A DNA stretch of 64,000 nt, from positions 1 to 64,000 of IMG/VR virus record IMGVR_UViG_2908273394_000001; one strand, given 5' to 3'. The notes below the pieces were generated by a model. The model did not search any database, had not been told where the DNA came from, and saw nothing but the letters and a program-made list of their open reading frames with translations. The stretch comes from a virus (lineage: Duplodnaviria; Caudoviricetes). Positions 1 to 63,418 of the stretch are shown in pieces. How positions within the stretch are numbered: position 1 is the stretch's first letter; each line of letters begins with the position of its first letter. Position numbers and translations under genes: made by a program.

Positions 1-225
1 CCGGACTGGCCATGGAGTCTCTGAGCGCACCATGCGCGGTGGGTGAAGGAGCGGCGCCTGGCCGTCGAAAGGTTCGACGGCATCGTCCACGTCAGCTACT
101 CGGACCTCCTGGAAGCCCACCGCGACTGGGTCAACCGGTCCACGTCCCCTGAACGTTCGTCACCTCTCGGCCAGTCAGCCCCGTTCCCGATCTGGGAGCG
201 GGGCTTTCGTGTGCCCGACTCCTCG

Positions 226-263
226 ATAACCCATTGCGCACGCAATGGGTTATGGCTTATGGT
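226..263 (+). promoter_or_regulatory. Palindromic operator overlapping a sigma70/HrdB-like promoter (copy 1)
   Basis: ATAACCCATTGCG-CA-CGCAATGGGTTAT perfect inverted repeat (226-253) containing TTGCGC; TATGGT lies 18 nt downstream. Confidence 0.7.
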
Positions 264-775
264 GGTGGAGCCGACAACGCACCAGCCCACACAGGGCCGG
301 TGAGACGTACGAGTCCAGGAGCCCCGCCATGAGCGTGATCAGCCCTGCCGCAGCACCGCACCGCTCGCCGACTACAACAAAGCTGGGCACCACCCACCAG
401 CAGCACTTCGACTCCTTCATGGAGCAGGCCGACAAAACCACCGACGCCACCGAGTACGGCTCCCTCATGGCCGCCGCCGCCCTCGCCGTCGCATCCCCCT
501 CCCGCCCGGCGGGGAGATCGCCAAGTGCGCCTGCGCCAAGTGCTACTGCGCCGCGATCTTCGACACCGCGCCCCCGGCCTCACCGTCGTCGAGACCAGCC
601 TCTACGGCCCCCCGCCTCCAGTGCGCGGACTGCACCGACGAGCACGCCTCACCCATCGAGGACTGACCCACCCCAGACACCGGCCCGGCCGCCAGGTCGA
701 CGCCCCCCATCCCTCGCGGCCGGGCCGGACCAAGCCAGACCCAGAGACCCCACGAGCACGCACCGGGAGACCCCC

Positions 776-1202
776 ATGTCCGAGACCGGCCTCATCCTCC
801 GCACCGCCCAGCAGATCGTGAACTACTTCGGCCTCACCGACGCCGACCACACGAACTTCGCCGACACCCAGGGCCGCCTCGACATCACCGGCGCGATCTA
901 CCGCGCCGTGACCGGCACCACCCCCAACGCCTTCCTCGCCGACGCCACCTTCGCGCTGGTCCTCATCAACACCAACGCGGCTGTGATGACCGCCGTGCGC
1001 TGGGTCTCCGCCGTCCTGCCCACCCTCCCCCGCACGACCCGGAGACCGGCATCGACGACCACATCGAGCACCTCTCCGCCTGGCTGTCCGACACCGACCC
1101 GGTCCTCGGGCGCCCCCAACACCTGCGACGTCATCGGCTCCTGGCGCCGCCATCGCCGCCGACACCGTCACCGACGTCCCGAGCCAGCGCACCGCCGCCT
1201 GA
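776..1202 (+). CDS. Hypothetical phage protein, apparently frameshifted
   Basis: RBS GGGAG then ATG (MSETGLILRTAQQIVNYFGL...); sensible protein sequence changes frame near 1030. Confidence 0.45.
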
Positions 1203-14766: not shown

Positions 14767-15675
14767 CTAGGACGCCCGTTTCCGGGCGGTCTTCTTCGCC
14801 GTGGTCTTCTTGGCGGCCGTCTTCTTGGCCGCGGTCTTCTTCGGCTTCGGCATCTCGTGGACGGTGGCGTCGGTGCCGGTGGCCTCCCGGGAGGCCTTGG
14901 CCTTGGCGACGGATTCCTCGAGCGCGGACATGAGGTCGACGACGCGTCCCGTCGGCGCCTCCTCGGCCTCGACCGGCCGGGGCTCGCGGTCCTCGGCCTT
15001 GGCTTCGAGGATCTCAGCGAGCGCTTCGCGGTAGTGGTCGGTGAGCTCCAGGTCGTCGAGGTGCTCGACGCTCATCGTGTCCATGAGCGCGAGGGCGCCT
15101 TCGATCTCCTGCTCGCTGATGTCGCTCTCGCCGGGGGTGAGGGGTTCGGAGGACCGGATCTCGTCCGGCCAGTGCATGGCGTTGAGGAGCAGGGCGTCGC
15201 CTTTGACTCGGAGCATGCCCAGGCGTTCGCGGCCTCGCAGGGCGAACTTGGCGATGGCCACCTTGTCCGTGCGCTCGAGTGCTTTCTGCAGCAGGACGTA
15301 GGGCTTGGCTGACACGGGGTTGTCGGCGGTGAGGTAGTAGTTGCCCTCGCCGAGCTGGATCGGGTCGATGCTCTCGCGGTCGACGAACGCGACGATGTCG
15401 ATGGCCTTCGCGGTCGGCAGCGGCATCTGGGCCAGCTCGTCGTCCGTGATGGGGATGACGTTGTCCTTGGAGACTTCGTAGCCCTTGCCGATGTCGTCCT
15501 GGGTCAGCTCTTTGCCGTCGATCTCGCAGACCTTGCGGTAGCGGATCCGTCCGCCGTCGGCGAGGTGGATCTGGTTGAAGCTGATGCCGTGCGATTCGGT
15601 CGCAGGTTCGAGCCGCACGGGGATCGTGACCAACCCAAAACTGACGGCCCCGCTCCAGATAGGTCGACCGGGCAT
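14767..15675 (-). CDS. ku: NHEJ DNA end-binding protein Ku
   Basis: RPIWSGAVSFGLVTIPVRL, GGRIRYRKVC, WPDEIR, VVDLMSALEESV, Lys/Ala-rich tail. Confidence 0.96.
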   Translation of the reverse strand: MPGRPIWSGAVSFGLVTIPVRLEPATESHGISFNQIHLADGGRIRYRKVCEIDGKELTQDDIGKGYEVSKDNVIPITDDELAQMPLPTAKAIDIVAFVDRESIDPIQLGEGNYYLTADNPVSAKPYVLLQKALERTDKVAIAKFALRGRERLGMLRVKGDALLLNAMHWPDEIRSSEPLTPGESDISEQEIEGALALMDTMSVEHLDDLELTDHYREALAEILEAKAEDREPRPVEAEEAPTGRVVDLMSALEESVAKAKASREATGTDATVHEMPKPKKTAAKKTAAKKTTAKKTARKRAS

Positions 15676-17615: not shown

Positions 17616-18299
17616 TCAGAGGGAGCGCAGGACGGCGACGACCTTGCCGAGGATCGTGGCGTCGTCGCCGGGGATCGGGTCGTAGGCGGGGTTGTGGGGC
17701 ATCAGCCAGACCCGGCCGTTCTCGCGGCGCAGGCGCTTCACGGTGGCTTCGCCGTCGAGCATGGCGGCGACGATGTCGCCGTGGTCGGCGGTTTCGGCCT
17801 TGCGGACGGTGACGATGTCGCCGTCGCAGATCGCGGCGTCGATCATGCTGTCGCCGACCACCTTCAGCGCAAACAGCTGCCCCTCCCCGACGAGCTGACG
17901 GGGGAGGGAGAAGACGTCCTCGACCGTTTCCTCGGCGAGGATCGGCGCGCCGGCCGCGATCCGGCCGACGAGCGGCACCTGGGCCAGGTTGTGCCCGCTC
18001 TCCGGGGGCGTTGTGGTGGCGTCGTGATCCTGCGAGCGCACGCGGTAGGCGCGCGGGCGGTGGGGGTCGCGGAAGAGGAAGCCCTTGCGTTCCAGTGCCA
18101 TGAGCTGGTGGGCGACGGACGAGGTGCTGCTGAGATTCACCGCGGCGCCGATCTCCCGCATGGACGGCGGGTAGCCCTGGCGGGACACCTCCCGCTCGAT
18201 GAAGGAGATGATCGCGGCTTGCCGGGCGGTGAGCCCGTGCTTGTCGGCGTGGATGCCGGGGGGACGCCCGGGCCGACCTGCGGTTTCGACAGCGTGCAT
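17616..18299 (-). CDS. lexA: LexA repressor (full length)
   Basis: [10 protein letters not shown]...[10 protein letters not shown]; VGRIAAGAP cleavage site; GDSM and ATVK catalytic dyad. Confidence 0.95.
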
Positions 18300-19885: not shown

Positions 19886-20043
19886 CCTCCCGTGGGGAGC
19901 CGGGAGGCGGCGCGGCCCCGCCCACGCGCGTACGCAGGGCGGAGCCGGGCGCGGTCCACTCCGGGGGGAGTCGCAATGCGGAGGACCGCGTTCCCCCACC
20001 CTGCCACCAGGCACCCCACCCGCAACAGGGTCGTGCAGGAATA
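19886..20043 (-). ncRNA. Candidate structured small RNA plus promoter, copy 2
   Basis: Same three-hairpin layout as 17182-17337 with a diverged middle stem; TTGCGG-N16-CAGGGT. Confidence 0.55.
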
Positions 20044-20106
20044 ACGCAGGCATATGCAGAGCGCCCGCCCCGAGTGCTGCCCGGGGCGGGCGCTCAGTTG
20101 CGTGGG

Positions 20107-20373
20107 TCAGAAGATTTGGGGGGCGGCGGGGGCAGGGGCGGGAACCCTGTAGCTGACCGTCTTCACGGCGGAGGCCGAGACGATCGTCACCTGCCGCTCA
20201 CCCTGGCCGGGGTACGCCTCCTTGCCGGCCTGCGGGTCGATGTGGAGGAAGGAACCCTCGACAGCCACGTGCGCGCTGCGGATTTCCTTCATCATCACGT
20301 GGCCGGCGTTCGGGTCGGGTACGAGGCCCTCCGTGAGGGTGACGTCGGCCGTGCGCCAGTCGAGGTTGCTCAT
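20107..20373 (-). CDS. Small hypothetical protein
   Basis: AAGGA RBS; own TGTCAGTG-type promoter at 20419-20440. Confidence 0.65.
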   Translation of the reverse strand: MSNLDWRTADVTLTEGLVPDPNAGHVMMKEIRSAHVAVEGSFLHIDPQAGKEAYPGQGERQVTIVSASAVKTVSYRVPAPAPAAPQIF

Positions 20374-20493
20374 GGGGTTCCTTCCGGTCGGCGACCGGGC
20401 TGGCCGCGAGATCCGGCGAGCGTTGCACGCGGCACTGACAATCCGCCCTGAAAGTGGGACGGTTCGCGAGCAGAGGCCTGGGGACTGCTGGGG

Positions 20494-20655
20494 CTAGTTG
20501 CCCGGCTTGACCTTCACGATCTCCACGTCGGAGACGCCTTCCTCGGCTTCCTTCAGTGCCTTGTAGTCCTCGGCGGCCGCCGCGCTGTAGGAGACGGCTG
20601 ACTCCTGCCGCTCGTCTCTGCCGGCCTTGGTCCACTGCAGCCTGTAGCTCTCCAC
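20494..20655 (-). CDS. Small hypothetical protein
   Basis: GGAGG RBS, GTG start (ESYRLQWTK...SAVSYS). Confidence 0.6.
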   Translation of the reverse strand: MESYRLQWTKAGRDERQESAVSYSAAAAEDYKALKEAEEGVSDVEIVKVKPGN

Positions 20656-20764
20656 GACGTCCTCCGCTCGAGATGGGTGTGCCCGGCGGTTCGCATCGGC
20701 TTCGAGGTGATGGGCGCCGCCGGGCTCGTACAGGCTCGCACGGGCCACTGACAGTGCCGGTGGG

Positions 20765-21835
20765 TCAGGCGTGCCAGGTGCCGCGGAGGGCTGCGGCGGC
20801 GAACCCGGGCCCGTAGGCGATGACGACGCCTCGGGCGCCGGCCGGGGGCGGGTCGGCGTGGGTGCGCTCGAGGACGCGGAGGATGCTGACGCCGCCGAGG
20901 TTGCCTTCGTCGGCGAGGGTGGTGAAGGAGTGCCGGGCCGCCGCGTCGTCGAGGCCGAGCGCTGTGGCGGTGTCGGTGATGATGCGGGGGCTGCCGGGGT
21001 GGATGGCGGTGAAGTCGACGGGGGAGTCGCCGAGCCAGTTGAGGACGGTCGGCAGGACGTCGTCGGCGGCCGTGAGCGCCTGCTTGGTGGAGTCGAAGTG
21101 GAAGCCGGTGCCGTCGATCCGGCCGCTGTAGCGCTCGACGCTGTCGGGGAGGACGAACTCGAGGGTGTCGTCGGGGTCGTCGATGCGGAGGCTGGGGCCG
21201 AGCGGATGGTCGGAGACGATGCACGCGGCGGCGGAGTCCCCGAACAACGCCTTGTAGATCATCGCCTCAATGCTGGTGTCGTGGTGGTTGTAGACGCTCG
21301 AGATGACCTCTGCGGCGACGACCAGGACGCGAGTGCCGGGGCGGGCGGTGACGAGGTCGATGGCGCGGATGAGGGCCTGGGTGCCGCCTGCGCACGCGAG
21401 GGTTGTCAGGGCGATGCGGCGGACGGTCGGGGCGAGGCGGAGCCGGTCTATGAGGTGGATGTCCAGGTTGGGGACGGCCCAGCCGGTGGAGTGGGTGGTG
21501 ACGATCGCGTCGACGCCGGCATACGCCCCGGGGTCTGGGCCTGCGTGGAGGCCGGCTGTGGTGAGGGCGGTCCGCCCGGCGCGGGTGGCCATCTCGAGCG
21601 CGTCGTTGAACGCGGTGGTGGAGCGTTCTTCGATGGACGCGGTGCCGGAGATGGTGGGCGCGGTGAGGGGCTGGGTGAAGTATCGGGTGTCGACGCGCAG
21701 TGCGCTGATGATGCGGGGGATCGCGGCCCGTCGGGGGTGTTCGGGGTGGTGCGTGAGGATGTCGTCGACGATCTCGCTGGTCGACACCTTGTGGTCGGGA
21801 AGGATCGTGTGGGGTCGGGAGATGTAGACGGGCAC
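20765..21835 (-). CDS. Type III polyketide synthase (chalcone synthase/RppA/PhlD-like)
   Basis: Catalytic Cys (LACAGG), His (AIHPGS) and Asn (EGNLGG); ALFGDSAAA; AYGPGF; GGAGG RBS before GTG at 21835. Confidence 0.92.
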   Translation of the reverse strand: MPVYISRPHTILPDHKVSTSEIVDDILTHHPEHPRRAAIPRIISALRVDTRYFTQPLTAPTISGTASIEERSTTAFNDALEMATRAGRTALTTAGLHAGPDPGAYAGVDAIVTTHSTGWAVPNLDIHLIDRLRLAPTVRRIALTTLACAGGTQALIRAIDLVTARPGTRVLVVAAEVISSVYNHHDTSIEAMIYKALFGDSAAACIVSDHPLGPSLRIDDPDDTLEFVLPDSVERYSGRIDGTGFHFDSTKQALTAADDVLPTVLNWLGDSPVDFTAIHPGSPRIITDTATALGLDDAAARHSFTTLADEGNLGGVSILRVLERTHADPPPAGARGVVIAYGPGFAAAALRGTWHA

Positions 21836-21920
21836 GATGGGCCTCCGCACATGGCTGGTCGGTGTGGGGGGTGCCGACACCGTACGCCAGCTAGGTGTCG
21901 GCGTTCCCCCTGATCACAGG

Positions 21921-22750
21921 TCAGACGTCACGTGCGCGGAGCATCGGGACTCTGGAGTGGGCCTTCTTCGTGCCGGGGTGGAAGATGAGAACGATCAGGC
22001 GTGCTCCGGGCGCTGTCATGGGTTCTGCTGCACACATGGTGACGTGTCCGGGGCCCAGAAGGTTGTGTCGTATGGGGCGTTCGTCGCCGTCGGGGTGCAT
22101 ATGAGCTCCGCCGGCATCCCACAGCGGGCGCAGGTCGGGGTCGGCGGTGACTTCCTTGACGATCTGCAGAAGCGTTTCATCTTCAGGGCGGGCGGAGAGT
22201 GCGGCCTTGAGCTGGGGGACGACGAGGGGGGCCCAGGCGGTCTTCCAGTCGATGAGGGTGTCGCGTCCGTCGGGGTCGAGGAGCATCCATCGCATGGTGT
22301 TGCGGGGGGCCCGGCCGCCGGGAAACAGGTCGGCCCAGACCTGGTTGTGGGCGAGGAGGTTCCAGGACGCGTCGGTGATGTAGGCCATGTGGGATATGCC
22401 GTCGACGGCTTCCTGCCACACGCCTGGGACCTCGAGTCCGGAGTCCTGGTAGAGCGGGCCCGGGGGTCGCCGATGCCGGCGAACCGGCATACGCTGCGCC
22501 ATTCCTGTTCGTTGAGACCGAAGAGGCGGCCGACTTCGGCGAGGTATTCGACCGTCGGGATCACCGCGCCGGTCTCGAGCCGGTTGTAAGAGTTGCGGGC
22601 GCGGCCGAGGAGGTCGTCGACCTGGTGCTGCGACAGGCCCTGCGCGCGGCGGCCGCGGCCTTGGGCCTTTGCGAATCCGTGGGCTTCCGGATCGATGAGT
22701 GCCCGACGCTCCTTCAGCAGCGCCTTCAAAGCCTTCCTGTTCGCTGTCAT
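21921..22750 (-). CDS. MmyB-family regulator (XRE HTH plus PAS-like ligand-binding domain); frameshift near 22465
   Basis: LLKERRALIDP...GRGRRAQGLSQHQVD...YNRLETG; AYITDASWNLLAHN...NTMRWMLL...DWKTAWA. Confidence 0.82.
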
Positions 22751-23392
22751 GCGGCAGTTCCCCCCGGTGTAGTGCGAACGTATCGCGGTGTGGAGTCTAA
22801 ATATTGGCGACGGGTTTCGTAATAAAAACTGTGCGTAGATTTCGGGCGGTTGAAGCCTCAAGCTTGGGGCGTGGTCGCCGCTGACCTGCCGGGAAGCAGG
22901 CGTGGCGGTCACCGGCAGGACAAGCCTTCCAGGCGATGTGCGGGCATCTGTCATATCGCCCCACGGGATTGTTCTGTTGCCCTCGTCGGGGCTCCGGCCA
23001 GGGCGGAGTAGGGACGTTGCCGTAATCCGTGTTTCGGTGCGGATTTCGCAGCTCGGCTTCGTTCCGCTTCGCTTGCCGCCGGAGCACCGAGGGAAACTCC
23101 CGAGCACTGCGGCCGGGGTCGGTGACTGCCCTTGCGGCGCGGTTTCCGCACTCTGATCGCGCGAGACGGTCAGGTGGTTCCTCCCCCGGTCCAGCCTGAC
23201 CAACCGGCCGGCCCCGGACAGCACCCTCCACCCGCTGTCCGGGGCCGCCGTACGTCCATGGCAGCCCACGGCGATGTCCTCTTTCGTCGATTGAGACTTG
23301 AGCGTGTGGGGGGTTCTGCTCGTCTGCCCCGGAAATCGCCCCTGGCACATGACGTCACCCGAACGGGTGATGGGGCGTTGGTTGGCGGGCCG

Positions 23393-23707
23393 TCAGCCGT
23401 CGTCGGCAGGCTCCTCGACCAAGGCGTGCTCGGACTGTGGGTAGCCACAGGCGCCAGCGCCGTAGAAGGTGGCCTGGCAGGGGCCGGGGCCCTTGTAGGT
23501 GTGGTGGGTGATGAGCCGGTGCTGACCTTCCTCACGCCGGACAGCGGCCATCACGTCCGTCGCCAGGGTGTCGGCGTAGGTACCGGGCACCATCGGGTTC
23601 CCCCTCGGCCAGGCAATCTTCTTCACCTGCTCCAGCACCGCCGGGTACCGCGGGTCCTTCCGCGCATCGTTCCGGGCGGTCGGGTTGAAGTCGGTGATCG
23701 GGCTCAT
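23393..23707 (-). CDS. Hypothetical protein
   Basis: AGGAG RBS; last gene of the leftward operon. Confidence 0.55.
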   Translation of the reverse strand: MSPITDFNPTARNDARKDPRYPAVLEQVKKIAWPRGNPMVPGTYADTLATDVMAAVRREEGQHRLITHHTYKGPGPCQATFYGAGACGYPQSEHALVEEPADDG

Positions 23708-30585: not shown

Positions 30586-31680
30586 CTAGTCGTCCCAGCC
30601 GGCAGCGGGTAGCGGATTTGACGTGCGCCGTGACAGCCAGGAGCGCATGTCCACCCAGGACGGCAGCCACTCCGGCTGATAGCCGGGGCGGTCGTGGTAC
30701 GGGTAAGCCATCTCCACCAGAACAACAGCGCCCGTCGTGGATGGGACGCCGAGGAACTGCTCGCCGTCGGGACGCGTGCCCACGGCGGGGAGGCAGGTGT
30801 CGATGATCCGGCGGTCACGAGCTATCTGGGCGAGGCGATTGCCGTCTTGAGCGCACTCGGTCTCGTCGGCCACCAACTGCTCCTGTACCCATGCACCGAG
30901 CTGGAGCAGGTCATTGGCACCCCACACTGACCGACGCTTCGGCAGTACCGGCTTAGGGTGCTGAATGATCCTGTACCGGAGAGCCCGGACTCCAACCGCA
31001 GCTGAGCGTTCGACGTGGTCGGAGTCCTCCAGCTTCCGCAGGTGCTTGGCCATCGTTCCGCGGGTAAGTCCGACCGCTTGTGTTGCCTCAGTCAGGGTGA
31101 ACGTGTCGTCCCCGTACATCCTGCTGATCAGGAGGTGTACGAGATCCTGGCGATTTCGGGGCTGCCGAGGAAGCTCATCGTGCCTAGCGACGGCATGCAT
31201 CTCCCAGATCTTGGTCAGGAGCCCACGGTGCGCCATCGTGGTGAGCGCTGCGGTGATCGCAACTACGGGGATCCGGTACGTGGAGGAGAGTTCGCCATAC
31301 GGGGGAAGGATCGACCATTGCGGATACGTTCCTCGCTCCAGGTCTGTTTCGACGGCCTCGGTTGCTCGTGCGGTCTCGAACGCTAGGCGCTCACCTCGCT
31401 GGGGAGTGATGCCTCGGTTCCCGCTTCCGTCGTACTTCGGGTCCTCGGCCAACAAGGCCGCTTTCTCCACGGCTGCCGCCTCGCTGCGGGTTTCGTACCA
31501 GGTGACATTGCGCTTGACGACGTCCAACCACCAAGGTTGGAGTCGCTCGTGAGTTTTCCACCGCTCGTCGATGTCGTGGGTCATTCCCAGGTACAACAGC
31601 CGATCGTCAGCATCCCAGAACCTGTAGACCGCAGCTCGAGTTTCGGGAGCACGAGCGCCGTTGTCCGTGGAGCTAGTCAC
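30586..31680 (-). CDS. GIY-YIG-like nuclease / GntR-like wHTH / HTH / DUF6221-like fusion
   Basis: AVYRFWDADDRLLYLGMT...RW...H...WW...AVEKAA; LERGTYP...LPPYGELS; MAYPYHDRPGYQPEWLP. Confidence 0.72.
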   Translation of the reverse strand: MTSSTDNGARAPETRAAVYRFWDADDRLLYLGMTHDIDERWKTHERLQPWWLDVVKRNVTWYETRSEAAAVEKAALLAEDPKYDGSGNRGITPQRGERLAFETARATEAVETDLERGTYPQWSILPPYGELSSTYRIPVVAITAALTTMAHRGLLTKIWEMHAVARHDELPRQPRNRQDLVHLLISRMYGDDTFTLTEATQAVGLTRGTMAKHLRKLEDSDHVERSAAVGVRALRYRIIQHPKPVLPKRRSVWGANDLLQLGAWVQEQLVADETECAQDGNRLAQIARDRRIIDTCLPAVGTRPDGEQFLGVPSTTGAVVLVEMAYPYHDRPGYQPEWLPSWVDMRSWLSRRTSNPLPAAGWDD

Positions 31681-45870: not shown

Positions 45871-46239
45871 CTACGGCCGCCACTCGTCCCGGTAGTCGCT
45901 GTGGTCGGCGTACGGGAGGGCGAGCAGGCGCAGCGTCGCGCAGGGGTAGTACGACTGGCTGACCCCGCCGAAGTCGCACTCCCTGCAAAAATCGGTGCTG
46001 TAGCCCGACTCCAGTGACTCCTGGTGCAGATCTACGATGCGCCGCTTGGCGTCGACCTCGGCGAGGACGCGAGAGGGGGACCAGGCTGAGCGTCTCCACT
46101 CGGGCGTCTTCACCGTGTCCTCTACCCACTGTCCTCGGATCATCCGCCGGGTTACTGTCGTCCGCCTCAAAGCGTCTTCCGCCGCGCGCTGCTCTTCGTC
46201 AAGACAAGTGTTGAGGAACTGCACGAGATCGTCGGTCAC
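45871..46239 (-). CDS. DUF6221-like protein (paralog 3)
   Basis: LVQFLN...RVLAEVDAKRRIV...LRLLALPYADHSDYRDEWRP. Confidence 0.8.
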   Translation of the reverse strand: MTDDLVQFLNTCLDEEQRAAEDALRRTTVTRRMIRGQWVEDTVKTPEWRRSAWSPSRVLAEVDAKRRIVDLHQESLESGYSTDFCRECDFGGVSQSYYPCATLRLLALPYADHSDYRDEWRP

Positions 46240-46631
46240 GGCCGCCACTCTTCGCGGTAGTCGGGGTGGTCGGCGTATGGCAGGGCGAGGAACTCCAGCG
46301 CGGTACGCAGGGAGCTGACGGAGCCGGTCAGCCGGTCGTAGGAGACCATGGCGGGCCCGCTGTTCTGGAACTCGGCGACCGCACGTTCGTAGGCGTTGGC
46401 CACCTCGCGTTTGGCGTCGACCTCGGCGAGGACGCGGGTCGGGTCGTGGCGGACGATGTGGTCAGCGATGCCGGTCCAGTTCGCGGAGGCGCACTCTTCT
46501 GCGCGGTCGCCTTCGGTGGCAACGATCACGCCGGTCTCCCCGATCTGTCGGAAGCTATCGCCCGCTCGGCGGGCAGCGCGCTCGTCCTCGTCGAGGCGGT
46601 CGTTGAGGAACTGCACCAGAGCGTTGATCAC
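46236..46631 (-). CDS. DUF6221-like protein (paralog 2)
   Basis: LVQFLNDRLDEDE...HDPTRVLAEVDAKR...LALPYADHPDYREEWRP. Confidence 0.8.
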   Translation of the reverse strand: MINALVQFLNDRLDEDERAARRAGDSFRQIGETGVIVATEGDRAEECASANWTGIADHIVRHDPTRVLAEVDAKREVANAYERAVAEFQNSGPAMVSYDRLTGSVSSLRTALEFLALPYADHPDYREEWRP

Positions 46632-47119
46632 GGCCGCCACGCGTCCTGGTAGTCGGCGTGGTCGGCGTACGGTAGCGCCAAGAGGCGCAGGACCCATTCC
46701 GAAGTCACTGCCGGTGCCGGGACCCGCCCCACATGCACCCACTTGCCGTCACGTTCCTCCATCAGCGAGACCCAGCGCGCACCGTCTTCCTCCCACGCGG
46801 GCCCCAACGAGCGGAGGGCGCAGGATCCACTGAACGAATGCTCGCTCCGCCTGCCGCAGGCAGGCGGACAATCGACAGCCGAAGCCTCGACCAGCCGCCG
46901 CTTGGCGTCGACCTCGGCCAGCACCCGCGCGGGGTGCTGGTGGGCGATGAACGCGGCGTCGCCCGGTTCCAGCGGTCCGACGGTGCGGTGGTGGTAGCCG
47001 GGCGGTGTCACGAACTCTCGGCTCCACACCCACTCGCCCTGCGTCGCTGCGCGGGCGATCTGCTCGTCGTCGTCGAGGCGGTCGTTGAGGAATCGTGTCA
47101 GGGCAGGGGTGTCGGTCAT
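46628..47119 (-). CDS. DUF6221-like protein (paralog 1)
   Basis: FLNDRLDDDE...PARVLAEVDAKRR...LRLLALPYADHADYQDAWRP. Confidence 0.8.
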   Translation of the reverse strand: MTDTPALTRFLNDRLDDDEQIARAATQGEWVWSREFVTPPGYHHRTVGPLEPGDAAFIAHQHPARVLAEVDAKRRLVEASAVDCPPACGRRSEHSFSGSCALRSLGPAWEEDGARWVSLMEERDGKWVHVGRVPAPAVTSEWVLRLLALPYADHADYQDAWRP

Positions 47120-57652: not shown

Positions 57653-60600
57653 ATGGCAGAAGCCAGCGTCGTCGGCTCCACCCGGGTCACACTCATCCCG
57701 GACGTGAGCCAGTTCGGCGACCGGCTCCGCGTCGAGCTGCCCTCCGCGATCCGCGAACCCGCACGCGCCGCCGGTGACCTCGCCGGCGACACCATCCGTA
57801 ACGCGATCTCCAAGAAGCTCGCCAAGCCGATCGGTGTGCGGATCAAGACGGTCCTCGACGACAGGGCCACCAGCGCCGCCCTGCAGAAACTGACCAAGGA
57901 CCGCACGGTCAAAATCACGGCCGAGCTCGACGACAAGGCCGCCACCGCCGGCCTGACCCGGCTCACCCGCGACCGCACGGTGAAAATCGTCGCCGACGTC
58001 GACGACACCGCCGCCAAGACGAAACTCGGCGCCCTGTCCGGTCAGCAGACCGTCCACATCCTCCCCAAGATCCAGCAGGCGGCGTACCTCACCGCGCAGC
58101 GGCAGCTCGACCGCCTCACCGCGGACCGCGTCGTCAGCATCCGCGCGACGGTCGACACCCGCGTCGCCGCCCAAGACATCCGCAACCTGATTCAGCGGCG
58201 CCACGTCCGAATCGGGGCCGACGTCGACACCCGCGTCGCCGCGAACGACCTCGCCAACCTCACACGGCGCCGCCAGGTCACGATCGCGGCCCGTGCCGAC
58301 ACGGCCGCCGCCGACACCGCCCTGCGGTTCCTCACCCGCGACCGCACCGTCAACGTCCGCGTCCGCAGCATCGGTCTCGCCGCCCTCACCGGCGGCCTGT
58401 CCACCCTCGGCAGCAGCGGCGGCGGGGGAGTGGGCCTCAGCCTGCTGTCCAAGCGGGTCCTCGCCCTCACCGCTGCCACGCTCGCCGCCCTGCCCACCAT
58501 CGCCTCCCTGGGCTCCGCCATCGCGCAACTCGGCCCGCTCGCCGCCACCGCCGCGCCCGCGATCACGACACTGGTCACCGCGTTCGCCGCCATCAAGGTC
58601 GGCACCAAGGGCGTCGGCGACGCCATCAAGGCCGCGTTCGAGCCCGCAGCGGGTGAAGCATCGAAGGCCGCGTCCGCGACCCGCGCGGTGGAGAACGCCC
58701 AACGCTCCCTCGCCCGCGCCCAGCGCTCCCTGCAGGACGCCCAGGTCCAGGCCGCTGAACGGGTCCGGCAGGCGCAGCGGCAGGTCGCCGACGCCGAACG
58801 GGACCTGAGCTCCGCGCAGCGCGACGCCCGCCAGGCCCAGATGGACCTCAGCGCCGCCCGCCGCGAGGCCGCACGCGACCTGCAGGACATGAACAACCGC
58901 CTCGCCGACGGACGCCTCTCCGAGCGGGAAGCGACCCTGTCGCTGCAGCAGGCCGAGGAAGACCTCACCCGGGTCCGCACCGACCCGGCCGCCACCCAGC
59001 TGCAGATCCAGCAGGCGGAACTGTCCCGCGACCGGGCCGTGCAGTCCCTGCAGACGCAGCGCGTCGAGCTGAGCCGCCTACAGAAGGACACCGCCGCCGC
59101 GACCAAGGCCGGCATCGACGGCAGCGCGGCCGTAGGCCGGGCCAAGCAGCAGATGGCCGCCGCCGAGCAGAACGTCGCAGACCGCCAGCGCGCGCTCGCC
59201 GAAGCACAGCTCGAGGTCACCAAGGCCCAAGTCGACGGGCAACGCCAGATAGCCGACGCGCACATGGCCGTGGCCGACGCGGTGCGCAGCGTCGCAGACG
59301 CCCAGCAGGCCGCGGCCACGCAGACCAGCGCCCTGGACACGGCGATGGCGAAACTGTCCCCGAACGCGCGGGCTTTCGTCACCCAGCTCCAGGCCATGGC
59401 CCCCGCCTGGCGGAGCATGCGCCTCGACGTCCAGGACAGCCTGTTCGCCGACCTCGGGACCCGCCTGGGGCAGGTCGGGGCGCAGATCCTGCCCACCGTC
59501 CGTCAGGGCCTGGTCGGCGCCGCGGGCGAGCTGAACGCGATGGGTAAAAACGCCCTGACCGCCGTGTCGAACCTGCAGAAGACCGGACAGCTCAAGAGCG
59601 TCTTCGACGGCGCCACCCAGTCACTGCGCAACCTCTCCCGCCTGCCCGGCCAGATGGTGACCGGCCTGGCGCAGTTGTCCATCGCCGCGCAGCCCGCGTT
59701 CAACCGGATGACGACCGGTCTGGCCGGCGCCATGGACCGCGTCATGGAGAAGCTGTCCGCGGGCCTCGCGGACGGCAGCCTCACCGAGACCATCAACACG
59801 GCCCTCGACGTCGCCATCGCGTTCGGGAAAGTCCTCGGGGACCTCGGCGGCATCATCGCCGGCATCTTCCGCGCCGCCGGAGCGGCCGGAGGGGACTTCT
59901 TCGGCACGATCGGTGTCGCCATCGCCGAACTGCGCCGCATCATCGAGCTGCCGGAGGTGCAGGCCACCCTCACGGAGATCTTCAAGGCCCTCAACGCGGT
60001 CGCGAAACTGTTCGTCGGGGTCCTGGGCGCAGCGCTTCAGGCGATCCTGCCGCTGCTGGCCGCGCTGTCCCCGGTCATCGTGCAGCTCGCCGAACAGCTC
60101 GGCCCGGTCTTCGCGGAGCTGTTCAGGCAGCTTGGTACCGCGCTGGGCCCGATCATCACCGCGCTGCTGCCGATCATCACCACCGTCGGCAGTGTCCTGA
60201 CCGACCTCGTCACCACCCTGCTGCCGCTGCTGCAGCCCATCGGCGACCTGATCGCCGAGATCGTCACCGCGCTCGCCCCGGTGTTCACCGTCGTCGGGGA
60301 AATCCTCACCACCGTCCTCCAGGCGGCCGTGACCGGGCTGCGGCCGGTCATCCTGGCGCTGCTGCCGGCCGTGGGCCTGATCGGGCAGCTCCTCGCCGAC
60401 CTCGCGCCGCTGTTCCCGCCGCTGCTGCAGGCCCTGATGCCGCTGTTCCCGCCGCTCACGCAGCTGACCCTGTCGCTGCTGAACCTGGCCGTGCAGATCC
60501 TCATCCCGCTGATGCCGCTCATCGTCGGCCTGGCGACGCTCCTCACCGGCGTCCTGGCCAAGGCGATCGAACACCTGGTGCCCATCTTCACCACGGTCAT

Positions 60601-63418
60601 CGGCTGGTTCACCACGTTCGTCGACGCCTGCACCGCGGCGGTGAAGTGGGTCGTCGAGAAGTTCATGTGGCTGTGGGACGTGCTGCTGGGGCATTCGATC
60701 ATCCCCGACATCGTCAACGGAACCGTCGAATGGTTCCGCCGGCTGTGGCGCTGGCTCGGCGACCTCGTCGCCAGGATTGTGGGCGGTGTCGTCGGCTGGT
60801 TCACCAACCTGAAGAACGACACCGTCCGGATCTGGGACGCACTGTGGGGCAAGGTCCGCTCCATCGCCTCCACCACCTGGGGCCTGGTCAAGGCCGGGTT
60901 CGACAAGTTCGCCACCAGCCTCAAGACCGCGTTCGGGCTGCTCCGCGACGGCATCGGGACCGTGTGGAGCGGGCTGAAGAAGCTCGTCTCCAGCCCCGTG
61001 AAATTCTTCGTGGAGACGGTGTACAACAAGGGCCTGGTCCAGGTCTGGAACGCCACCGCAGGCAAGATCCCCGGCCTCCCCGACATGAAGCCGATGCCGC
61101 TACCGAAGGGCTTCGCCCGCGGCGGCATCCTGCCCGGCTGGTCCACCTGGCGCGACGGCGACGACCAGCTCGTCCCCATGCGCCGCGGCGAAGGCGTCTA
61201 CGTCTCCGAGGTGATGGCCGACCCCTACGAGCGCCAGCGCCTCTACGCGATGAACCAGGCCGCGATCCGCGGCCAGAACCCCGCCGTTGTCCGCGCCCAG
61301 TACGGGTTCGCCGAGGGCGGCATCATCGGCTCCCTGACCTCGATCGGGTCCGGGATCGCCGACAGTGTCGGCAGCGCCCTGAAGAAGGGTGCCGGCGCCG
61401 TACGCGGCGGGCTCGCCGACGTCGCCGAGCAGGCGTTCAAGCCCATCAAGTCCGGCATCAACAAGGCCCTCGGCAACAAGCGCGGCACCTGGCCCGGGAT
61501 GGTCGCGGCCGCACCCCTGCACCTGATCGACCGGGCCATCGACTACATCCGCGGCAAAGACGTCCCCGAGTCCACCGGCCGCTGGCTCAAGCCCGTCAAC
61601 GCCCCCTTCGGCACGAAGTTCGGAGTGAAGGGCCGCATGTGGTCCTCCGGCCGGCACACCGGCCTGGACTTCCCCGCCGCCACCGGCACGAAGATCCTCG
61701 CCGTCGACAACGGCACCGTGCAGCAAGCCACCTCAGGCGGACCCTACGGCCAGCACGTACTCCTCTCCCACGGCGGCGGCCTGCAGTCCCTGTACGCGCA
61801 CATGTCGTCCATCGCCGCCCGCGTCGGCGCAGGCGTCAAGCAGGGCGCCCGGATCGGCGCCGTCGGAGCCACCGGCAACGTCACCGGCCCCCACCTCCAC
61901 CTCGAAGCCCGCCTGAACGGCAAGAGCGTGGACCCGATGAGCTACCTCACCGGCCCCACCAGCGGCGGGGACGGCGGCAGCGGCGTGCAGCGCTGGCGCG
62001 GCGTCGTCCAGCAGGCCCTCGGCCAGGTCCACCAGTCCCTCGGCCTGGTCAACACCACCCTGCGCCGCATGAACCAGGAGTCCGGCGGCAACCCGCGCGC
62101 GGTCAACCTGTGGGACTCCAACGCCAAGGCCGGATACCCCTCGGTCGGCCTCATGCAGGTCATCCGCGACACCTTCCGCGCCCACGCCGGCCCGTACCGC
62201 AACACCGGCCCCTTCATGTACGGCGTCTCCGTCGACCCGCTCGCCAACATCTACGCCTCCATGAAGTACGCGCTCGCCCGATACGGCTCCCTGTCGCGGG
62301 CTTATGACCGGCCCGGCGGATACGCCCGAGGCGGCCTGATCGGCGGCACCCGCATCCACCGCGGCCGCGGGTACGCCACCGGCGGCGTCATCACGATCGG
62401 CGGCAAGAAGATCAGCACCGGTCCCATCGGCGCAGCGGTCGGCGCGGACTTCCTCAAGCAGCTCACCGGCACCGCCGCCCAGATCAAGGCGGCCATGGAC
62501 AAGGTCGCCACCGCGATCAAGAACAGCTTCAAGGGCGTCTACACGACCCTCGACGAGAAGCTGCTCACCAAACTGAAGACCGCGAACACGCAGCTGCAGA
62601 ACCTTGCGAAGTCGCGTGACCAGATCGCCGCGAAGATCGCCGCAGCGAACCAGCTCGCCGCGGACTCCACCGCACAGGCCGGCCAGTTCACGCAGATGAC
62701 GTCGCTGCCCACCGGCGGGAACACCTTCGACGCCGCAGGGATCCTGTCCGGTCTGAACGTCCGCCTCGGGCAGCTGAAGACGTTCGGGAAGAACCTGCAG
62801 ACCCTCGCCGCACGGGGCCTGTCCAAGGCGCTGCTGCAGCAGATCATCGCCGCAGGACCCGACCAGGGCGCCGCGTACGCCAAGGCCCTCGTCGACGCGA
62901 CCCCGGCGCAGCTGAAGCAGATCAACGCCACACAGGACGCCCTGGGCAAGGCCTCCGCCCAGTACGGGCAGGACGCAGCGGACGCCATGTACGACGCGGG
63001 CGCCCAGTCCGGCAAGGGCTACCTTGCCGGGCTGAAGGCCCAGGAGCAGTCCATCAACACGGCAATGTCGGCACTCGCGAAGAAGATCCAGAAGGCGATC
63101 AAGGACGCTCTGAAAATCAAGTCCCCCTCCCGGGTGTTCGCCGAGATCGGCCGCTTCACCGTCGCCGGCTTCGCCCAGGGCATCCGCCAGGCCACCCCGG
63201 AAGCCGCCGCGTCCACCGCCCAGATGGCGGCCCTGGTCCGCGGCACGGCGGCCGCCACCATGTCCCGCATCGAGAACAACGCCTCCTCGTCGACCACCGT
63301 CGGCGACCGGCACCTGCACTACAACGCCACCGTCCGCGAGCAGGCATCGCGCGCATCCATCCTCGCCGCCCTGTCCCTTGAGGACGCCCTGCACCGGCCC
63401 GTCGTCATGGGGGTCTGA
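57653..63418 (+). CDS. Tape measure protein with M23 peptidase and lytic transglycosylase domains
   Basis: 1921 aa helical repeats; HTGLDF...YAHMS...HLHLE; QESGGNPRAVNLWDSNA...GLMQ. Confidence 0.93.
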   Translation: MAEASVVGSTRVTLIPDVSQFGDRLRVELPSAIREPARAAGDLAGDTIRNAISKKLAKPIGVRIKTVLDDRATSAALQKLTKDRTVKITAELDDKAATAGLTRLTRDRTVKIVADVDDTAAKTKLGALSGQQTVHILPKIQQAAYLTAQRQLDRLTADRVVSIRATVDTRVAAQDIRNLIQRRHVRIGADVDTRVAANDLANLTRRRQVTIAARADTAAADTALRFLTRDRTVNVRVRSIGLAALTGGLSTLGSSGGGGVGLSLLSKRVLALTAATLAALPTIASLGSAIAQLGPLAATAAPAITTLVTAFAAIKVGTKGVGDAIKAAFEPAAGEASKAASATRAVENAQRSLARAQRSLQDAQVQAAERVRQAQRQVADAERDLSSAQRDARQAQMDLSAARREAARDLQDMNNRLADGRLSEREATLSLQQAEEDLTRVRTDPAATQLQIQQAELSRDRAVQSLQTQRVELSRLQKDTAAATKAGIDGSAAVGRAKQQMAAAEQNVADRQRALAEAQLEVTKAQVDGQRQIADAHMAVADAVRSVADAQQAAATQTSALDTAMAKLSPNARAFVTQLQAMAPAWRSMRLDVQDSLFADLGTRLGQVGAQILPTVRQGLVGAAGELNAMGKNALTAVSNLQKTGQLKSVFDGATQSLRNLSRLPGQMVTGLAQLSIAAQPAFNRMTTGLAGAMDRVMEKLSAGLADGSLTETINTALDVAIAFGKVLGDLGGIIAGIFRAAGAAGGDFFGTIGVAIAELRRIIELPEVQATLTEIFKALNAVAKLFVGVLGAALQAILPLLAALSPVIVQLAEQLGPVFAELFRQLGTALGPIITALLPIITTVGSVLTDLVTTLLPLLQPIGDLIAEIVTALAPVFTVVGEILTTVLQAAVTGLRPVILALLPAVGLIGQLLADLAPLFPPLLQALMPLFPPLTQLTLSLLNLAVQILIPLMPLIVGLATLLTGVLAKAIEHLVPIFTTVIGWFTTFVDACTAAVKWVVEKFMWLWDVLLGHSIIPDIVNGTVEWFRRLWRWLGDLVARIVGGVVGWFTNLKNDTVRIWDALWGKVRSIASTTWGLVKAGFDKFATSLKTAFGLLRDGIGTVWSGLKKLVSSPVKFFVETVYNKGLVQVWNATAGKIPGLPDMKPMPLPKGFARGGILPGWSTWRDGDDQLVPMRRGEGVYVSEVMADPYERQRLYAMNQAAIRGQNPAVVRAQYGFAEGGIIGSLTSIGSGIADSVGSALKKGAGAVRGGLADVAEQAFKPIKSGINKALGNKRGTWPGMVAAAPLHLIDRAIDYIRGKDVPESTGRWLKPVNAPFGTKFGVKGRMWSSGRHTGLDFPAATGTKILAVDNGTVQQATSGGPYGQHVLLSHGGGLQSLYAHMSSIAARVGAGVKQGARIGAVGATGNVTGPHLHLEARLNGKSVDPMSYLTGPTSGGDGGSGVQRWRGVVQQALGQVHQSLGLVNTTLRRMNQESGGNPRAVNLWDSNAKAGYPSVGLMQVIRDTFRAHAGPYRNTGPFMYGVSVDPLANIYASMKYALARYGSLSRAYDRPGGYARGGLIGGTRIHRGRGYATGGVITIGGKKISTGPIGAAVGADFLKQLTGTAAQIKAAMDKVATAIKNSFKGVYTTLDEKLLTKLKTANTQLQNLAKSRDQIAAKIAAANQLAADSTAQAGQFTQMTSLPTGGNTFDAAGILSGLNVRLGQLKTFGKNLQTLAARGLSKALLQQIIAAGPDQGAAYAKALVDATPAQLKQINATQDALGKASAQYGQDAADAMYDAGAQSGKGYLAGLKAQEQSINTAMSALAKKIQKAIKDALKIKSPSRVFAEIGRFTVAGFAQGIRQATPEAAASTAQMAALVRGTAAATMSRIENNASSSTTVGDRHLHYNATVREQASRASILAALSLEDALHRPVVMGV

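What the first reader, a model, noticed from the sequence alone, without database searches (positions are those of the whole stretch)
20765..22850. Phage-borne type III PKS paired with a ligand-binding MmyB-type regulator: candidate small-molecule signalling or defence module
Seen: an intact type III PKS (Cys-His-Asn triad) lies about 85 bp downstream of, and co-oriented with, an XRE/PAS-like regulator in the phage accessory region. No tailoring or export genes are adjacent. Known: type III PKSs make small aromatic or pyrone polyketides on their own, and MmyB-family PAS-like domains bind small hydrophobic ligands. Inference: a synthase plus cognate receptor could form a polyketide-based communication circuit, functionally analogous to arbitrium. 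It might control lysis, lysogeny or conjugation, alter host development, or provide chemical anti-phage defence.
Basis: partly seen in the sequence, partly recalled or inferred. Interest (0 to 1): 0.85.

Follow-up and report, generated by a model that had tools for sequence, protein, structure and literature searches.

The report
Mobile regulator plus polyketide-synthase cassette
A Streptomyces phage-plasmid carries a compact two-gene unit, a small-molecule-sensing regulator and a stand-alone polyketide synthase, that also sits in many Streptomyces chromosomes, so it looks like portable metabolic cargo and not a phage-specific signalling device.

Summary
An intact type III PKS (20765-21835, minus strand; Cys-His-Asn conserved) lies 85 nt downstream of a co-oriented XRE-HTH/MmyB-type regulator. 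That regulator is split by loss of one C in a C6 run (22462-22466).

The 91-kb element is a phage-plasmid related to pZL12, whose annotated genes pZL12.99/100 are the same pair. The T3PKS of pZL12 and pSLE1 is already in print.

New here:
- The pair is an autonomous cassette of about 2.4 kb: a conserved roughly 400-nt non-coding leader, the regulator, a separate PKS promoter and the PKS.
- An intact regulator precedes the PKS in 75 of 75 testable loci.
- The cassette ends sharply at the PKS stop codon.
- Of 70 species-representative loci, 44 lie in five syntenic chromosomal sites without phage genes and 17 on contigs of phage-plasmid size.
- About 8% of sampled Streptomyces species carry it.

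Best reading: the regulator is a ligand-gated, pathway-specific activator of a stand-alone PKS, and phage-plasmids carry the unit as cargo. A polyketide communication circuit is not excluded but has no direct support. Two further one-base deletions in the record suggest the frameshift is probably an assembly error; no reads were available to test this.

The parts
20765..21835 (-). Type III polyketide synthase, 356 aa from GTG 21835 (longest ORF reaches 21880). Catalytic Cys148, His279, Asn312.
   Evidence: AlphaFold model has pLDDT 91.8. Best PDB neighbours are Gcs 3v7i (TMq 0.90, 27% identity) and THNS 1u0m (TM 0.90/0.92, 29% identity).
21836..21920 (-). Regulator-PKS intergenic region holding the PKS's own promoter-like architecture. 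It has a conserved box TGATCAGGGGGAA (21904-21916), a -10-like TACGGT (21879-21884, just inside the longest ORF), a C-rich block and the RBS GGAGG (21842-21846).
   Evidence: The same layout is seen across clades (box about 25-28 nt upstream of a TAnGTT-type hexamer). The box is unique in the element. The strict sigma-70 consensus scan found nothing, so the promoter assignment is an inference.
21921..22466 (-). Regulator, C-terminal part: MmyB-like ligand-binding (PAS-like) domain, read in the second frame. Stop codon at 21921-21923.
   Evidence: PF17765, 83.5 bits. It is 66% identical to pZL12.99. The model of the intact homologue L011 matches only MltR 3pxp at E<=1e-3 (E 1.7e-10).
22462..22466 (-). 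Frame break. The run is C5 on the coding strand where L011 and L017 have C6, inside the invariant Asp-Pro-Pro-Gly-Pro segment. It is a one-base deletion.
   Evidence: All 75 other testable regulators are single ORFs.
22464..22750 (-). Regulator, N-terminal part: XRE-type helix-turn-helix domain, ATG at 22750.
   Evidence: HTH_31 34.1 bits and HTH_3 31.1 bits. Translation.
22751..23190 (-). Conserved non-coding leader of the cassette. It holds an RBS (G-run), a -10-like TAGACT (22794-22799), TTACGA 17 nt upstream (22817-22822), an AT-rich block (22815-22840) and GCAGGTCAGCG (22879-22889). In relatives a hairpin about 400 nt upstream marks the left end of the cassette; that hairpin has decayed in the window copy.
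   Evidence: Alignment A2. Cassette borders by blastn. Hairpins. No 3-nt periodicity, unlike the coding control. No Rfam match. The hairpin is single-copy and cassette-linked in 15 of 401 genomes.

Best explanation
The locus is one copy of an autonomous cassette of about 2.4 kb. Its order is non-coding leader, MmyB-type regulator (REG), a separate PKS promoter, then a stand-alone type III PKS.

Inferred mechanism:
1. REG is made from its own conserved promoter.
2. REG binds a small amphiphilic ligand in its PAS-like domain. The ligand could be the PKS product or an acyl or fatty-acid-like metabolite.
3. Liganded REG acts on the conserved box at about -40 of the PKS promoter.
4. The PKS, with an intact Cys-His-Asn triad, condenses an acyl-CoA starter with malonyl-CoA units into a small untailored pyrone-, resorcinol- or phloroglucinol-type polyketide.

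The cassette moves as a unit between pZL12-type phage-plasmids and Streptomyces chromosomes. On the phage-plasmid it is accessory cargo (a 'moron') expressed from its own signals, and it is not part of the lysis, lysogeny or transfer circuitry.

Shown here: the domain content, the catalytic residues, the folds, the obligate pairing, the sharp cassette borders, the distribution and purifying selection.

Inferred: that REG controls the PKS promoter, the identity of the ligand, the class of product, and that the frameshift is an assembly error (my estimate is about 0.6-0.7).
For: Pairing:
- REG is immediately upstream, co-oriented and intact in 75 of 75 testable loci.
- LBD hits occur in 78 of 82 loci. 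The 4 misses are two contig edges and two truncated PKS remnants.
- 35 of 38 PLSDB rows show the same arrangement (my tabulation).

Cassette borders:
- Similarity between different contexts ends at the PKS stop codon (0 +/- a few nt) and about 380-420 nt upstream of REG.
- Conserved promoter-like blocks lie upstream of both genes.

Contexts:
- There are five syntenic chromosomal neighbourhoods with unrelated ordinary genes: GFO oxidoreductase, GNAT, acyl-CoA dehydrogenase, TetR, NUDIX, protease, NYN, alpha/beta hydrolase, kinase and sigma factor.

Tree:
- The cassette clade has SH-aLRT support of 99 against the RppA-like (L090, L091) and Pks11-like (L092) paralogues of the same hosts.
- Each of the chromosomal site groups chrA, chrB, chrC and chrE needs one change; chrD needs two.
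- chrB is nested within the pZL12-type plasmid clade (support 98).

Selection:
- dN/dS is 0.19-0.49 for the PKS and 0.10-0.43 for REG in 11 pairs.

Family membership:
- Pfam; PDB sequence and fold matches.
- MltR, the solved family member, bound a fatty-acid-like ligand, and the authors link the family to secondary and fatty-acid metabolism (PMC3406030, passages read).

Phage-plasmid setting:
- 31 of 125 proteins are shared with pZL12, none of them in the virion module.
- 13 of 15 plasmids of 84.8-99.2 kb that carry the closely related GntR marker also carry the PKS.

Frameshift probably artefactual:
- It lies in a homopolymer.
- Two more one-base deletions split conserved ORFs in the same record, near 35400 and 75950.
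Against: - No expression, binding or product data exist. No sequencing run could be listed.
- The REG operator is unknown. The box is a conservation-based guess, and the consensus scan found no promoter.
- REG could be a repressor.
- REG-clade homologues (61-63% identical to pZL12.99) occur without a PKS or leader on 6 linear plasmids. REG is therefore not bound to the PKS in every setting.
- Retention in 13 of 15 related phage-plasmids could reflect a role in the element's own life cycle.
- If the frameshift is real, this copy lacks a functional activator.
- The roughly 400-nt leader and its invariant hairpin are unexplained.
Some large contigs could be giant linear plasmids.
Confidence: 0.55

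Rival explanations
1. Synthase-receptor signalling circuit. The PKS makes a diffusible polyketide that is the ligand of REG. This gives autoinduction and cell-to-cell communication, and on phage-plasmids it may inform lysis-lysogeny, transfer or host development.
For: - The synthase and a ligand-binding regulator are paired in 75 of 75 testable loci, in a cassette without tailoring or export genes.
- PKS-less 'solo' REG homologues exist.
- The solved family member binds an amphiphilic ligand (PMC3406030).
- Pyrones are described as quorum-sensing signals in Photorhabdus (PMC4578411, start of abstract in the listing; further detail is recalled).
- 13 of 15 GntR-related phage-plasmids keep the cassette.
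Against: - Most species-level copies are chromosomal with no phage genes nearby.
- The PKS promoter box is found nowhere else in the 91-kb element.
- The cassette does not track terL.
- Some relatives have lost it or hold only a remnant: L083, and two GntR-marker plasmids.
- An adjacent regulator is the normal arrangement for pathway-specific control.
- Nothing here shows that the product leaves the cell or binds REG.
Confidence: 0.12
2. Chemical weapon or shield. The product is an antimicrobial, anti-phage or otherwise protective metabolite that benefits the lysogen, and REG only switches it on.
For: - The arrangement is moron-like, with its own promoters and a boundary hairpin.
- Both genes are under purifying selection in plasmid and chromosomal lineages.
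- The cassette is patchy and horizontally spread: 31 of 401 sampled Streptomyces genomes, with up to 3 copies in one genome.
- Secondary metabolites of Streptomyces are described as anti-phage agents in PMC10023795 (passage read).
Against: - There is no resistance, export or tailoring gene in any context.
- PMC10023795 reports no BGC for known anti-phage molecules in prophages (abstract).
- The product is unknown.
- This reading overlaps with the best explanation and differs only in what the product is for.
Confidence: 0.12
3. In this particular element the module is dead or dying. The one-base deletion is real, REG is not made, and the PKS is silent or only basally expressed.
For: - The frameshift is present in the deposited sequence, and the record's annotation lists only a truncated product at 21921-21422 region (annotated 21921-22421).
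- The upstream hairpin has also decayed in this copy.
- Cassette decay occurs elsewhere: L083 and L084 are remnants, and CP042280 has multiple breaks.
Against: - The break is a C6 to C5 change in a homopolymer.
- The same record has at least two further one-base deletions in conserved ORFs, a pattern typical of consensus errors.
- Both halves of REG show dN/dS of 0.23-0.43 against relatives, like intact copies.
- The PKS is fully intact.
Confidence: 0.33

Closest known systems
pZL12.99 / pZL12.100 of Streptomyces plasmid-phage pZL12 (phage ZL12, GQ919031)
   Same: It has the same two genes in the same order and orientation. The PKS is 63-64% identical and the regulator LBD 66% identical. The plasmid backbone is partly shared: 31 of 125 proteins, including GntR at 85%, SSB, a WhiB-like protein, a DciA-like protein, ParB, integrase and endolysin.
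   Different: pZL12's regulator is an intact 276-aa ORF. Its intergenic region is longer, 248 nt against 85. The virion and packaging module is unrelated. The original paper (PMC2897331) was not held, so I could not see what it says about these genes.
Type III PKS of pSLE1 (S. leeuwenhoekii) and T3PKS in plasmid prophages
   Same: PMC4487206 (passages read) reports a T3PKS 59% identical to pZL12-100 on the pZL12-like plasmid pSLE1. [quoted passage not shown] PMC10023795 (passage read) states that T3PKS were found exclusively in prophages detected on plasmid genomes. pSLE1 also has the regulator directly upstream (H21 and H63).
   Different: Neither passage mentions the regulator pairing, the cassette borders or the chromosomal copies.
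RppA/THNS, Gcs and Pks11/SrsA-like bacterial type III PKSs
   Same: They share the fold and the Cys-His-Asn triad (TM 0.84-0.92).
   Different: Identity is only 26-29%. A true RppA orthologue in a cassette-bearing host scores 686 bits to 1u0m against 134 bits for this protein. The Pks11-like paralogue scores 424 bits to 4jao against 113 bits. They form separate clades. In the alignment, the positions I recall as THNS Cys106 and Tyr224 (numbering recalled) read Ser and Gly here. The PGAP name 'PhlD' is not backed by any NCBIfam model above its cutoff. No PhlD or Gcs sequence was available for the tree.
MmyB / MltR family (XRE HTH plus PAS-like ligand-binding domain)
   Same: It has the same domain pair. 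The model of the intact homologue matches MltR 3pxp over 273 columns, E 1.7e-10. Family members are associated with secondary-metabolite clusters (PMC3406030).
   Different: Identity to MltR is 19%. The ligand and operator are unknown. There is no TTA codon, unlike mmyB as described in PMC3406030 (2 of 76 REG and 0 of 76 PKS genes have one). The window copy is frameshifted.
Small-molecule synthase/receptor pairs (LuxI/LuxR logic; PpyS/PluR photopyrones; arbitrium AimP/AimR in phages)
   Same: The resemblance is in working logic only. A synthase gene sits next to a gene for a ligand-binding transcription factor, in a portable unit.
   Different: There is no homology to any of these. No peptide, no AimR-like receptor and no link to lysogeny genes was found. 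Signal function is untested. Details of PluR and arbitrium are recalled, apart from the abstract starts in the listing.

Membership tests
Type III polyketide synthase (CHS/STS superfamily) | N- and C-terminal CHS/STS domains above the Pfam gathering scores | tested here: met
   PF00195 70 bits (cutoff 27). PF02797 27.4 bits (cutoff 27, marginal).
Type III polyketide synthase (CHS/STS superfamily) | Catalytic Cys-His-Asn triad | tested here: met
   The residues align with those of 1u0m. C148, H279 and N312 are invariant in A1 (7 of 7) and A4 (29 of 29).
Type III polyketide synthase (CHS/STS superfamily) | Thiolase-type fold of solved type III PKSs | tested here: met
   Model pLDDT 91.8, pTM 0.93. 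TM 0.90 to 3v7i and 1u0m.
Type III polyketide synthase (CHS/STS superfamily) | Makes a polyketide from acyl-CoA and malonyl-CoA without an ACP | not testable with these tools
   This needs an enzyme assay or heterologous expression.
RppA / THNS | Orthologue-level similarity and clade membership | tested here: not met
   134 bits to 1u0m against 686 bits for host orthologue L090. It forms a separate clade with support 99.
DpgA and other NCBIfam-curated KAS III-like families (bearing on the PGAP name 'PhlD') | Score above the curated cutoff | tested here: not met
   The best hit, DpgA, scores 76.6 bits against a cutoff of 425. No model reaches its cutoff.
MmyB-like transcription regulators (MLTR) | XRE-type HTH followed by the MLTR ligand-binding domain | tested here: met
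   HTH_31 34.1 bits and PF17765 83.5 bits on the two halves.
MmyB-like transcription regulators (MLTR) | Fold like MltR (3pxp) | tested here: met
   This was tested on the intact homologue L011 (about 78% identical in the LBD). The model has pLDDT 88.6. 3pxp chains are the only PDB matches at E<=1e-3. The profile search hit to 3pxp is marginal, E 0.0011.
MmyB-like transcription regulators (MLTR) | One continuous reading frame | tested here: not met
   The window copy is split at 22462-22466. All 75 other testable copies are continuous.
pZL12-type phage-plasmid | Plasmid maintenance genes together with a full set of virion and lysis genes on one replicon of about 90 kb | tested here: met
   The annotation of the matching PLSDB record lists ParA/ParB, integrase, terminase, capsid, tail, tape measure and amidase. 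CheckV estimates 100% completeness. 31 of 125 proteins are shared with pZL12.
pZL12-type phage-plasmid | Virion module homologous to that of pZL12 | tested here: not met
   No window protein between about 36 and 69 kb hits pZL12. The terL type is shared with only 3 other Streptomyces plasmids at 63% identity or more.
pZL12-type phage-plasmid | Replicates as a plasmid and forms infective particles | not testable with these tools
   This is experimental. The pZL12 paper was not held.
Phage communication system (arbitrium-like) | The receptor controls lysis-lysogeny genes of the element | tested here: inconclusive
   The only conserved candidate operator box occurs once, at the PKS promoter. A 2-mismatch site is no better than the control. 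The true operator is unknown.
Synthase/receptor autoinducer pair | The receptor binds the product of the adjacent synthase, and the product acts between cells | not testable with these tools
   Only adjacency is shown.

The most novel reading that the evidence does not exclude
The cassette is a portable autoinducer module of a kind not described in actinomycetes. A stand-alone type III PKS makes an alkylpyrone- or resorcinol-like signal. An MmyB-type receptor encoded next to it senses that signal and feeds back on the PKS promoter. Phage-plasmids spread the module between Streptomyces species, and PKS-less 'solo' receptors on linear plasmids listen in.
Probability: 0.12. Interest if true: 0.85.

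Novelty: new member of a known kind. Interest (0 to 1): 0.42.

Why it matters
Phage-plasmids are an under-studied route of gene flow in Streptomyces. What their accessory genes do for host or element is largely unknown.

This work turns a noted curiosity, a lone T3PKS on pZL12 and pSLE1, into a defined unit of about 2.4 kb that can be tested. The unit has its own regulator, promoters and borders. It is present in about 8% of sampled Streptomyces species and has moved between phage-plasmids and chromosomes.

Because the unit is small and self-contained, a single heterologous-expression experiment could give three things at once: the product, the first ligand for this branch of the MmyB family, and a direct test of whether a phage-plasmid carries a small-molecule circuit.

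If it proves to be plain regulated biosynthesis, it is still a clean example of a biosynthetic moron.

Tried and rejected
- **Rfam.** A scan of 20600-23500 at E<=1 gave 0 matches.
- **Consensus scan.** The sigma-70 and terminator scan of 20000-23500 gave 0 sites.
- **Small ORF in the leader.** Rejected. Substitution shows no 3-nt periodicity (phases 0.195/0.196/0.169 and 0.186/0.191/0.196), whereas the REG coding control gives 0.065/0.037/0.294. The third group in that script failed with a KeyError and was not rerun. An ORF clustering attempt was uninformative.
- **Hairpin as a dispersed repeat.** Rejected. It is single-copy and cassette-linked.
- **bldA (TTA) control.** Rejected.
- **Programmed frameshift in REG.** Rejected, because all other copies are single ORFs.
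- **Reads to test the frameshift.** No run could be listed and no RNA holder was listed.
- **Empty-site comparison.** The upstream neighbour (23393-23707) occurs in only 2 PLSDB records, so this was dropped.
- **NCBIfam.** No model reached its cutoff for the PKS, and there were none for REG.
- **Single-sequence PDB search with REG.** This gave only a weak HTH hit.
- **Literature.**
  - No paper holds both 'MmyB' and 'type III polyketide synthase'.
  - Searches found no functional study of this PKS clade or of the pairing.
  - PMC9903846 was irrelevant.
  - PMC12889140 only lists pZL12 as a prophage signature.
- **Not done.**
  - PhlD and Gcs were not in the tree (no stored sequences).
  - No test_one_clade run, so the direction of plasmid-to-chromosome transfer is only suggested.
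  - No traB co-occurrence analysis.
  - No REG tree.
  - No empty chromosomal site comparison.
  - Complex prediction, the search of protein representatives, the protein-atlas search and the metagenome scan were not used.


Full report
**What is in the window**

The window is the first 64 kb of a 91,197-bp virus record. G+C is about 69% throughout.

On the minus strand, 20765-21880 is an open frame with the Pfam signatures of a type III PKS: Chal_sti_synt_N at 70 bits and Chal_sti_synt_C at 27.4 bits, just over its cutoff of 27. A conserved GGAGG-N6-GTG and the N-termini of homologues place the start at 21835.

The best solved relatives by sequence are THNS/RppA 1u0m (134 bits), Gcs 3v7i, Pks11 and Pks18. 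The catalytic Cys, His and Asn align with those of 1u0m. They are invariant in 7 of 7 and 29 of 29 aligned family members. An AlphaFold model (pLDDT 91.8) superposes on Gcs and THNS at TM 0.90, with only 27-29% identity.

Eighty-five nt upstream on the same strand ends a regulator. Its XRE-type HTH (ATG at 22750) and its MmyB-like ligand-binding domain (PF17765, 83.5 bits) lie in two different frames. The closest relatives read GGCGACCCCCCGGGCCC where the window reads one C fewer. The break is therefore a one-base deletion in a C6 run at 22462-22466.

**The element**

A PLSDB record of the same length (hit H3) matched the window where I compared them. Its annotation lists a PBSX-type large terminase, a P22-type capsid protein, tail proteins, a 1,921-aa tape measure, an amidase, an integrase, ParA/ParB, a conjugal-transfer protein, LexA and Ku. 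It is a phage-plasmid.

In 50,697 phage records, the PKS finds only Streptomyces phage ZL12, the plasmid-phage pZL12. There pZL12.99 ('transcriptional regulator', 276 aa, intact) directly precedes pZL12.100 ('type III polyketide synthase').

The window element shares 31 of 125 proteins with pZL12. These cover the plasmid and regulatory backbone, lysis, integrase and the regulator-PKS pair. Nothing in the virion module is shared. Its terL type is found in only 4 Streptomyces plasmids at 63% identity or more. Otherwise it resembles roughly 37-kb Streptomyces phages at about 53% identity.

**What is already in print**

- A survey of actinobacterial prophages states that T3PKS were found exclusively in prophages detected on plasmid genomes (PMC10023795, passage read).
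- The original pZL12 paper was not held.
- I found no paper that mentions the regulator pairing. One search found no paper with both 'MmyB' and 'type III polyketide synthase'. Searches found no functional study.

**The pair is a cassette**

A scan of one genome per prokaryote species returned 74 loci, all Streptomyces or Streptomycetaceae. IMG/VR gave 7 more loci.

- In every locus where the PKS is full length and upstream DNA exists, an intact co-oriented regulator lies 73-369 nt upstream of the PKS match: 75 of 75.
- The two full-length PKS loci without a regulator hit start at a contig edge.
- The only broken regulators are in the window and in one plasmid record that has several breaks in both genes.
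- In PLSDB, by my tabulation, 35 of the 38 best PKS rows (44% identity or more) have the regulator within 1.3 kb upstream on the same strand. Thirty of those 35 plasmids are 84.8-102 kb.
- Between unrelated contexts, nucleotide similarity stops at the PKS stop codon on one side and about 380-420 nt upstream of the regulator's start on the other.

The unit is therefore about 2.4 kb: leader, regulator, intergenic promoter region and PKS.

**Where the cassette lives**

I grouped the 77 full-length copies by flanking gene families and contig size:

- 24 on contigs of 84-103 kb (17 from species genomes, plus pZL12, five IMG/VR contigs and the window).
- 44 in five syntenic chromosomal neighbourhoods (20, 8, 5, 7 and 4 loci).
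- 7 on other large contigs, including one complete 8.5-Mb chromosome.
- 2 on small contigs.

The chromosomal neighbours are ordinary and unrelated between sites. They include a GFO-type oxidoreductase, GNAT, acyl-CoA dehydrogenase, TetR regulators, NUDIX, a protease, a NYN domain protein, an alpha/beta hydrolase, a kinase-like protein, a sigma factor and asparagine synthase. There are no phage genes and no shared tailoring or export genes.

In a maximum-likelihood tree (quick search, SH-aLRT support only):

- The cassette PKSs form one clade (support 99). It is far from the RppA-like and Pks11-like paralogues of the same host genomes.
- The chrA, chrB, chrC and chrE site groups each need one change; chrD needs two.
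- One chromosomal group of 8, plus the complete-chromosome copy, is nested inside the pZL12-type plasmid clade (support 98).
- This suggests transfer between phage-plasmid and chromosome. I ran no topology test, so the direction is not established.

In an even sample of 401 Streptomyces species genomes, 31 have a clade member at E<=1e-80. Three genomes have 2-3 copies.

Among 15 plasmids of 84.8-99.2 kb that share a GntR regulator at 79% identity or more with the window, 13 carry the PKS. One window-like contig retains only the C-terminal third of the PKS and no regulator (L083). The cassette is therefore common in this phage-plasmid group but dispensable.

**Signals inside the cassette**

The regulator-PKS spacer has the same layout in all clades:

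- a box (TGATCAGGGG-type) about 25-28 nt upstream of a TAnGTT-like hexamer;
- a C-rich block;
- GGAGG and the start codon.

So the PKS appears to have its own promoter with a candidate activator site near -40. This is inferred from conservation; the strict consensus scan found nothing. In the 91-kb element the box occurs only there.

Upstream of the regulator there is a conserved -10-like TAGACT, with TTACGA 17 nt before it, an AT-rich block and further conserved blocks.

About 400 nt upstream, most copies carry a 44-48-nt hairpin. Its stem covaries between clades, and within the largest chromosomal group it varies less than the coding sequence. It occurs once per genome and only beside the cassette: 15 strong hits in 401 genomes, each about 1.3 kb upstream of the PKS match.

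The leader shows no codon periodicity and no Rfam match. Its role is unknown. An insulating terminator at the cassette border is my guess. The hairpin has decayed in the window copy.

**The regulator**

The model of the closest intact homologue (L011; pLDDT 88.6) matches MltR 3pxp over its full length, E 1.7e-10. No other PDB entry reaches E<=1e-3.

MltR crystallised with a fatty-acid-like ligand. Its authors link the family to secondary and fatty-acid metabolism and describe its ligands as having hydrophilic heads and hydrophobic tails (PMC3406030, passages read). An alkylpyrone or alkylresorcinol would fit that description, but so would acyl precursors.

Regulator homologues at 61-63% identity also occur on six linear plasmids with no PKS, no PKS remnant and no leader.

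Neither gene carries TTA codons. Both are under purifying selection, with dN/dS of 0.10-0.49 in 11 pairs.

**The frameshift**

No sequencing run could be listed, so reads could not settle it. Indirect evidence comes from the same record. It has at least two more one-base deletions that split ORFs which are continuous in relatives. One is near 35400 in a C run. The other is near 75950 next to a G run.

Three single-base deletions at or beside C/G runs in 91 kb look more like consensus errors than three independent pseudogenes. I put the chance of an artefact at about 0.6-0.7.

**Verdict**

The finding is real, but the thing is a new member of a known kind: the pZL12 regulator/T3PKS pair.

It is more often chromosomal than phage-borne.

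That weakens a phage-specific communication role. It favours a regulated, self-contained biosynthetic unit carried as cargo. It leaves open, at roughly one in eight, that the product is the regulator's own ligand and acts as a signal.

Noticed in passing
window 22751-23190 (-); e.g. L028:6658-6706: A roughly 400-nt conserved non-coding leader sits upstream of the regulator. It begins with a 44-48-nt hairpin whose stem covaries between clades. Within the largest chromosomal group the hairpin varies less than the coding sequence. It is single-copy and found only next to the cassette. Its function is unknown, and it has decayed in the window copy.
   Followed up: partly
window ~35400; record ~75950 (outside the window): Two further one-base deletions, at or beside C/G runs, split ORFs that are continuous in relatives (L096 and pZL12.34c). 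This suggests residual consensus errors in this assembly.
   Followed up: partly
window 1-1200: No CDS is annotated in 1-897 of the matching record. ORFs of a related plasmid (L096) match this stretch in several different frames. The cause could be broken genes, assembly errors or a different arrangement of small genes.
   Followed up: no
window 17616-18299 (-) and 14767-15675 (-): The phage-plasmid encodes its own full-length LexA (LexA_DNA_bind plus Peptidase_S24) and a Ku protein, 2.5-6 kb from the cassette. A window-like contig (L083) keeps LexA at 84% identity next to the PKS remnant.
   Followed up: no
window 36000-64000 and record to ~69 kb: The virion and packaging module has no counterpart in pZL12, although the plasmid backbone is shared. 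terL is 86% identical in one other Streptomyces plasmid, 63% in two, and about 53% in roughly 37-kb Streptomyces phages. This points to module swapping within the phage-plasmid group.
   Followed up: partly
L094:4998-6061, L095:4995-6058: Six linear Streptomyces plasmids carry a regulator 61-63% identical to pZL12.99 with no PKS, no PKS remnant and no leader. It is followed by an overlapping 76-aa ORF and lies near ParA/ParB and primase genes.
   Followed up: partly
G277, G146, G170: Some Streptomyces genomes hold two or three diverged copies of the clade PKS (47-68% identity to the window protein) on different contigs.
   Followed up: no
window 30586-31680, 45871-47119; record 73459-73776: Five DUF6221-family genes are scattered over the element, three of them in tandem beside the portal-like gene.
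   Followed up: no
window 57653-63418 (+): A 1,921-aa tape-measure-position protein is annotated as a peptidoglycan DD-metalloendopeptidase family protein.
   Followed up: no
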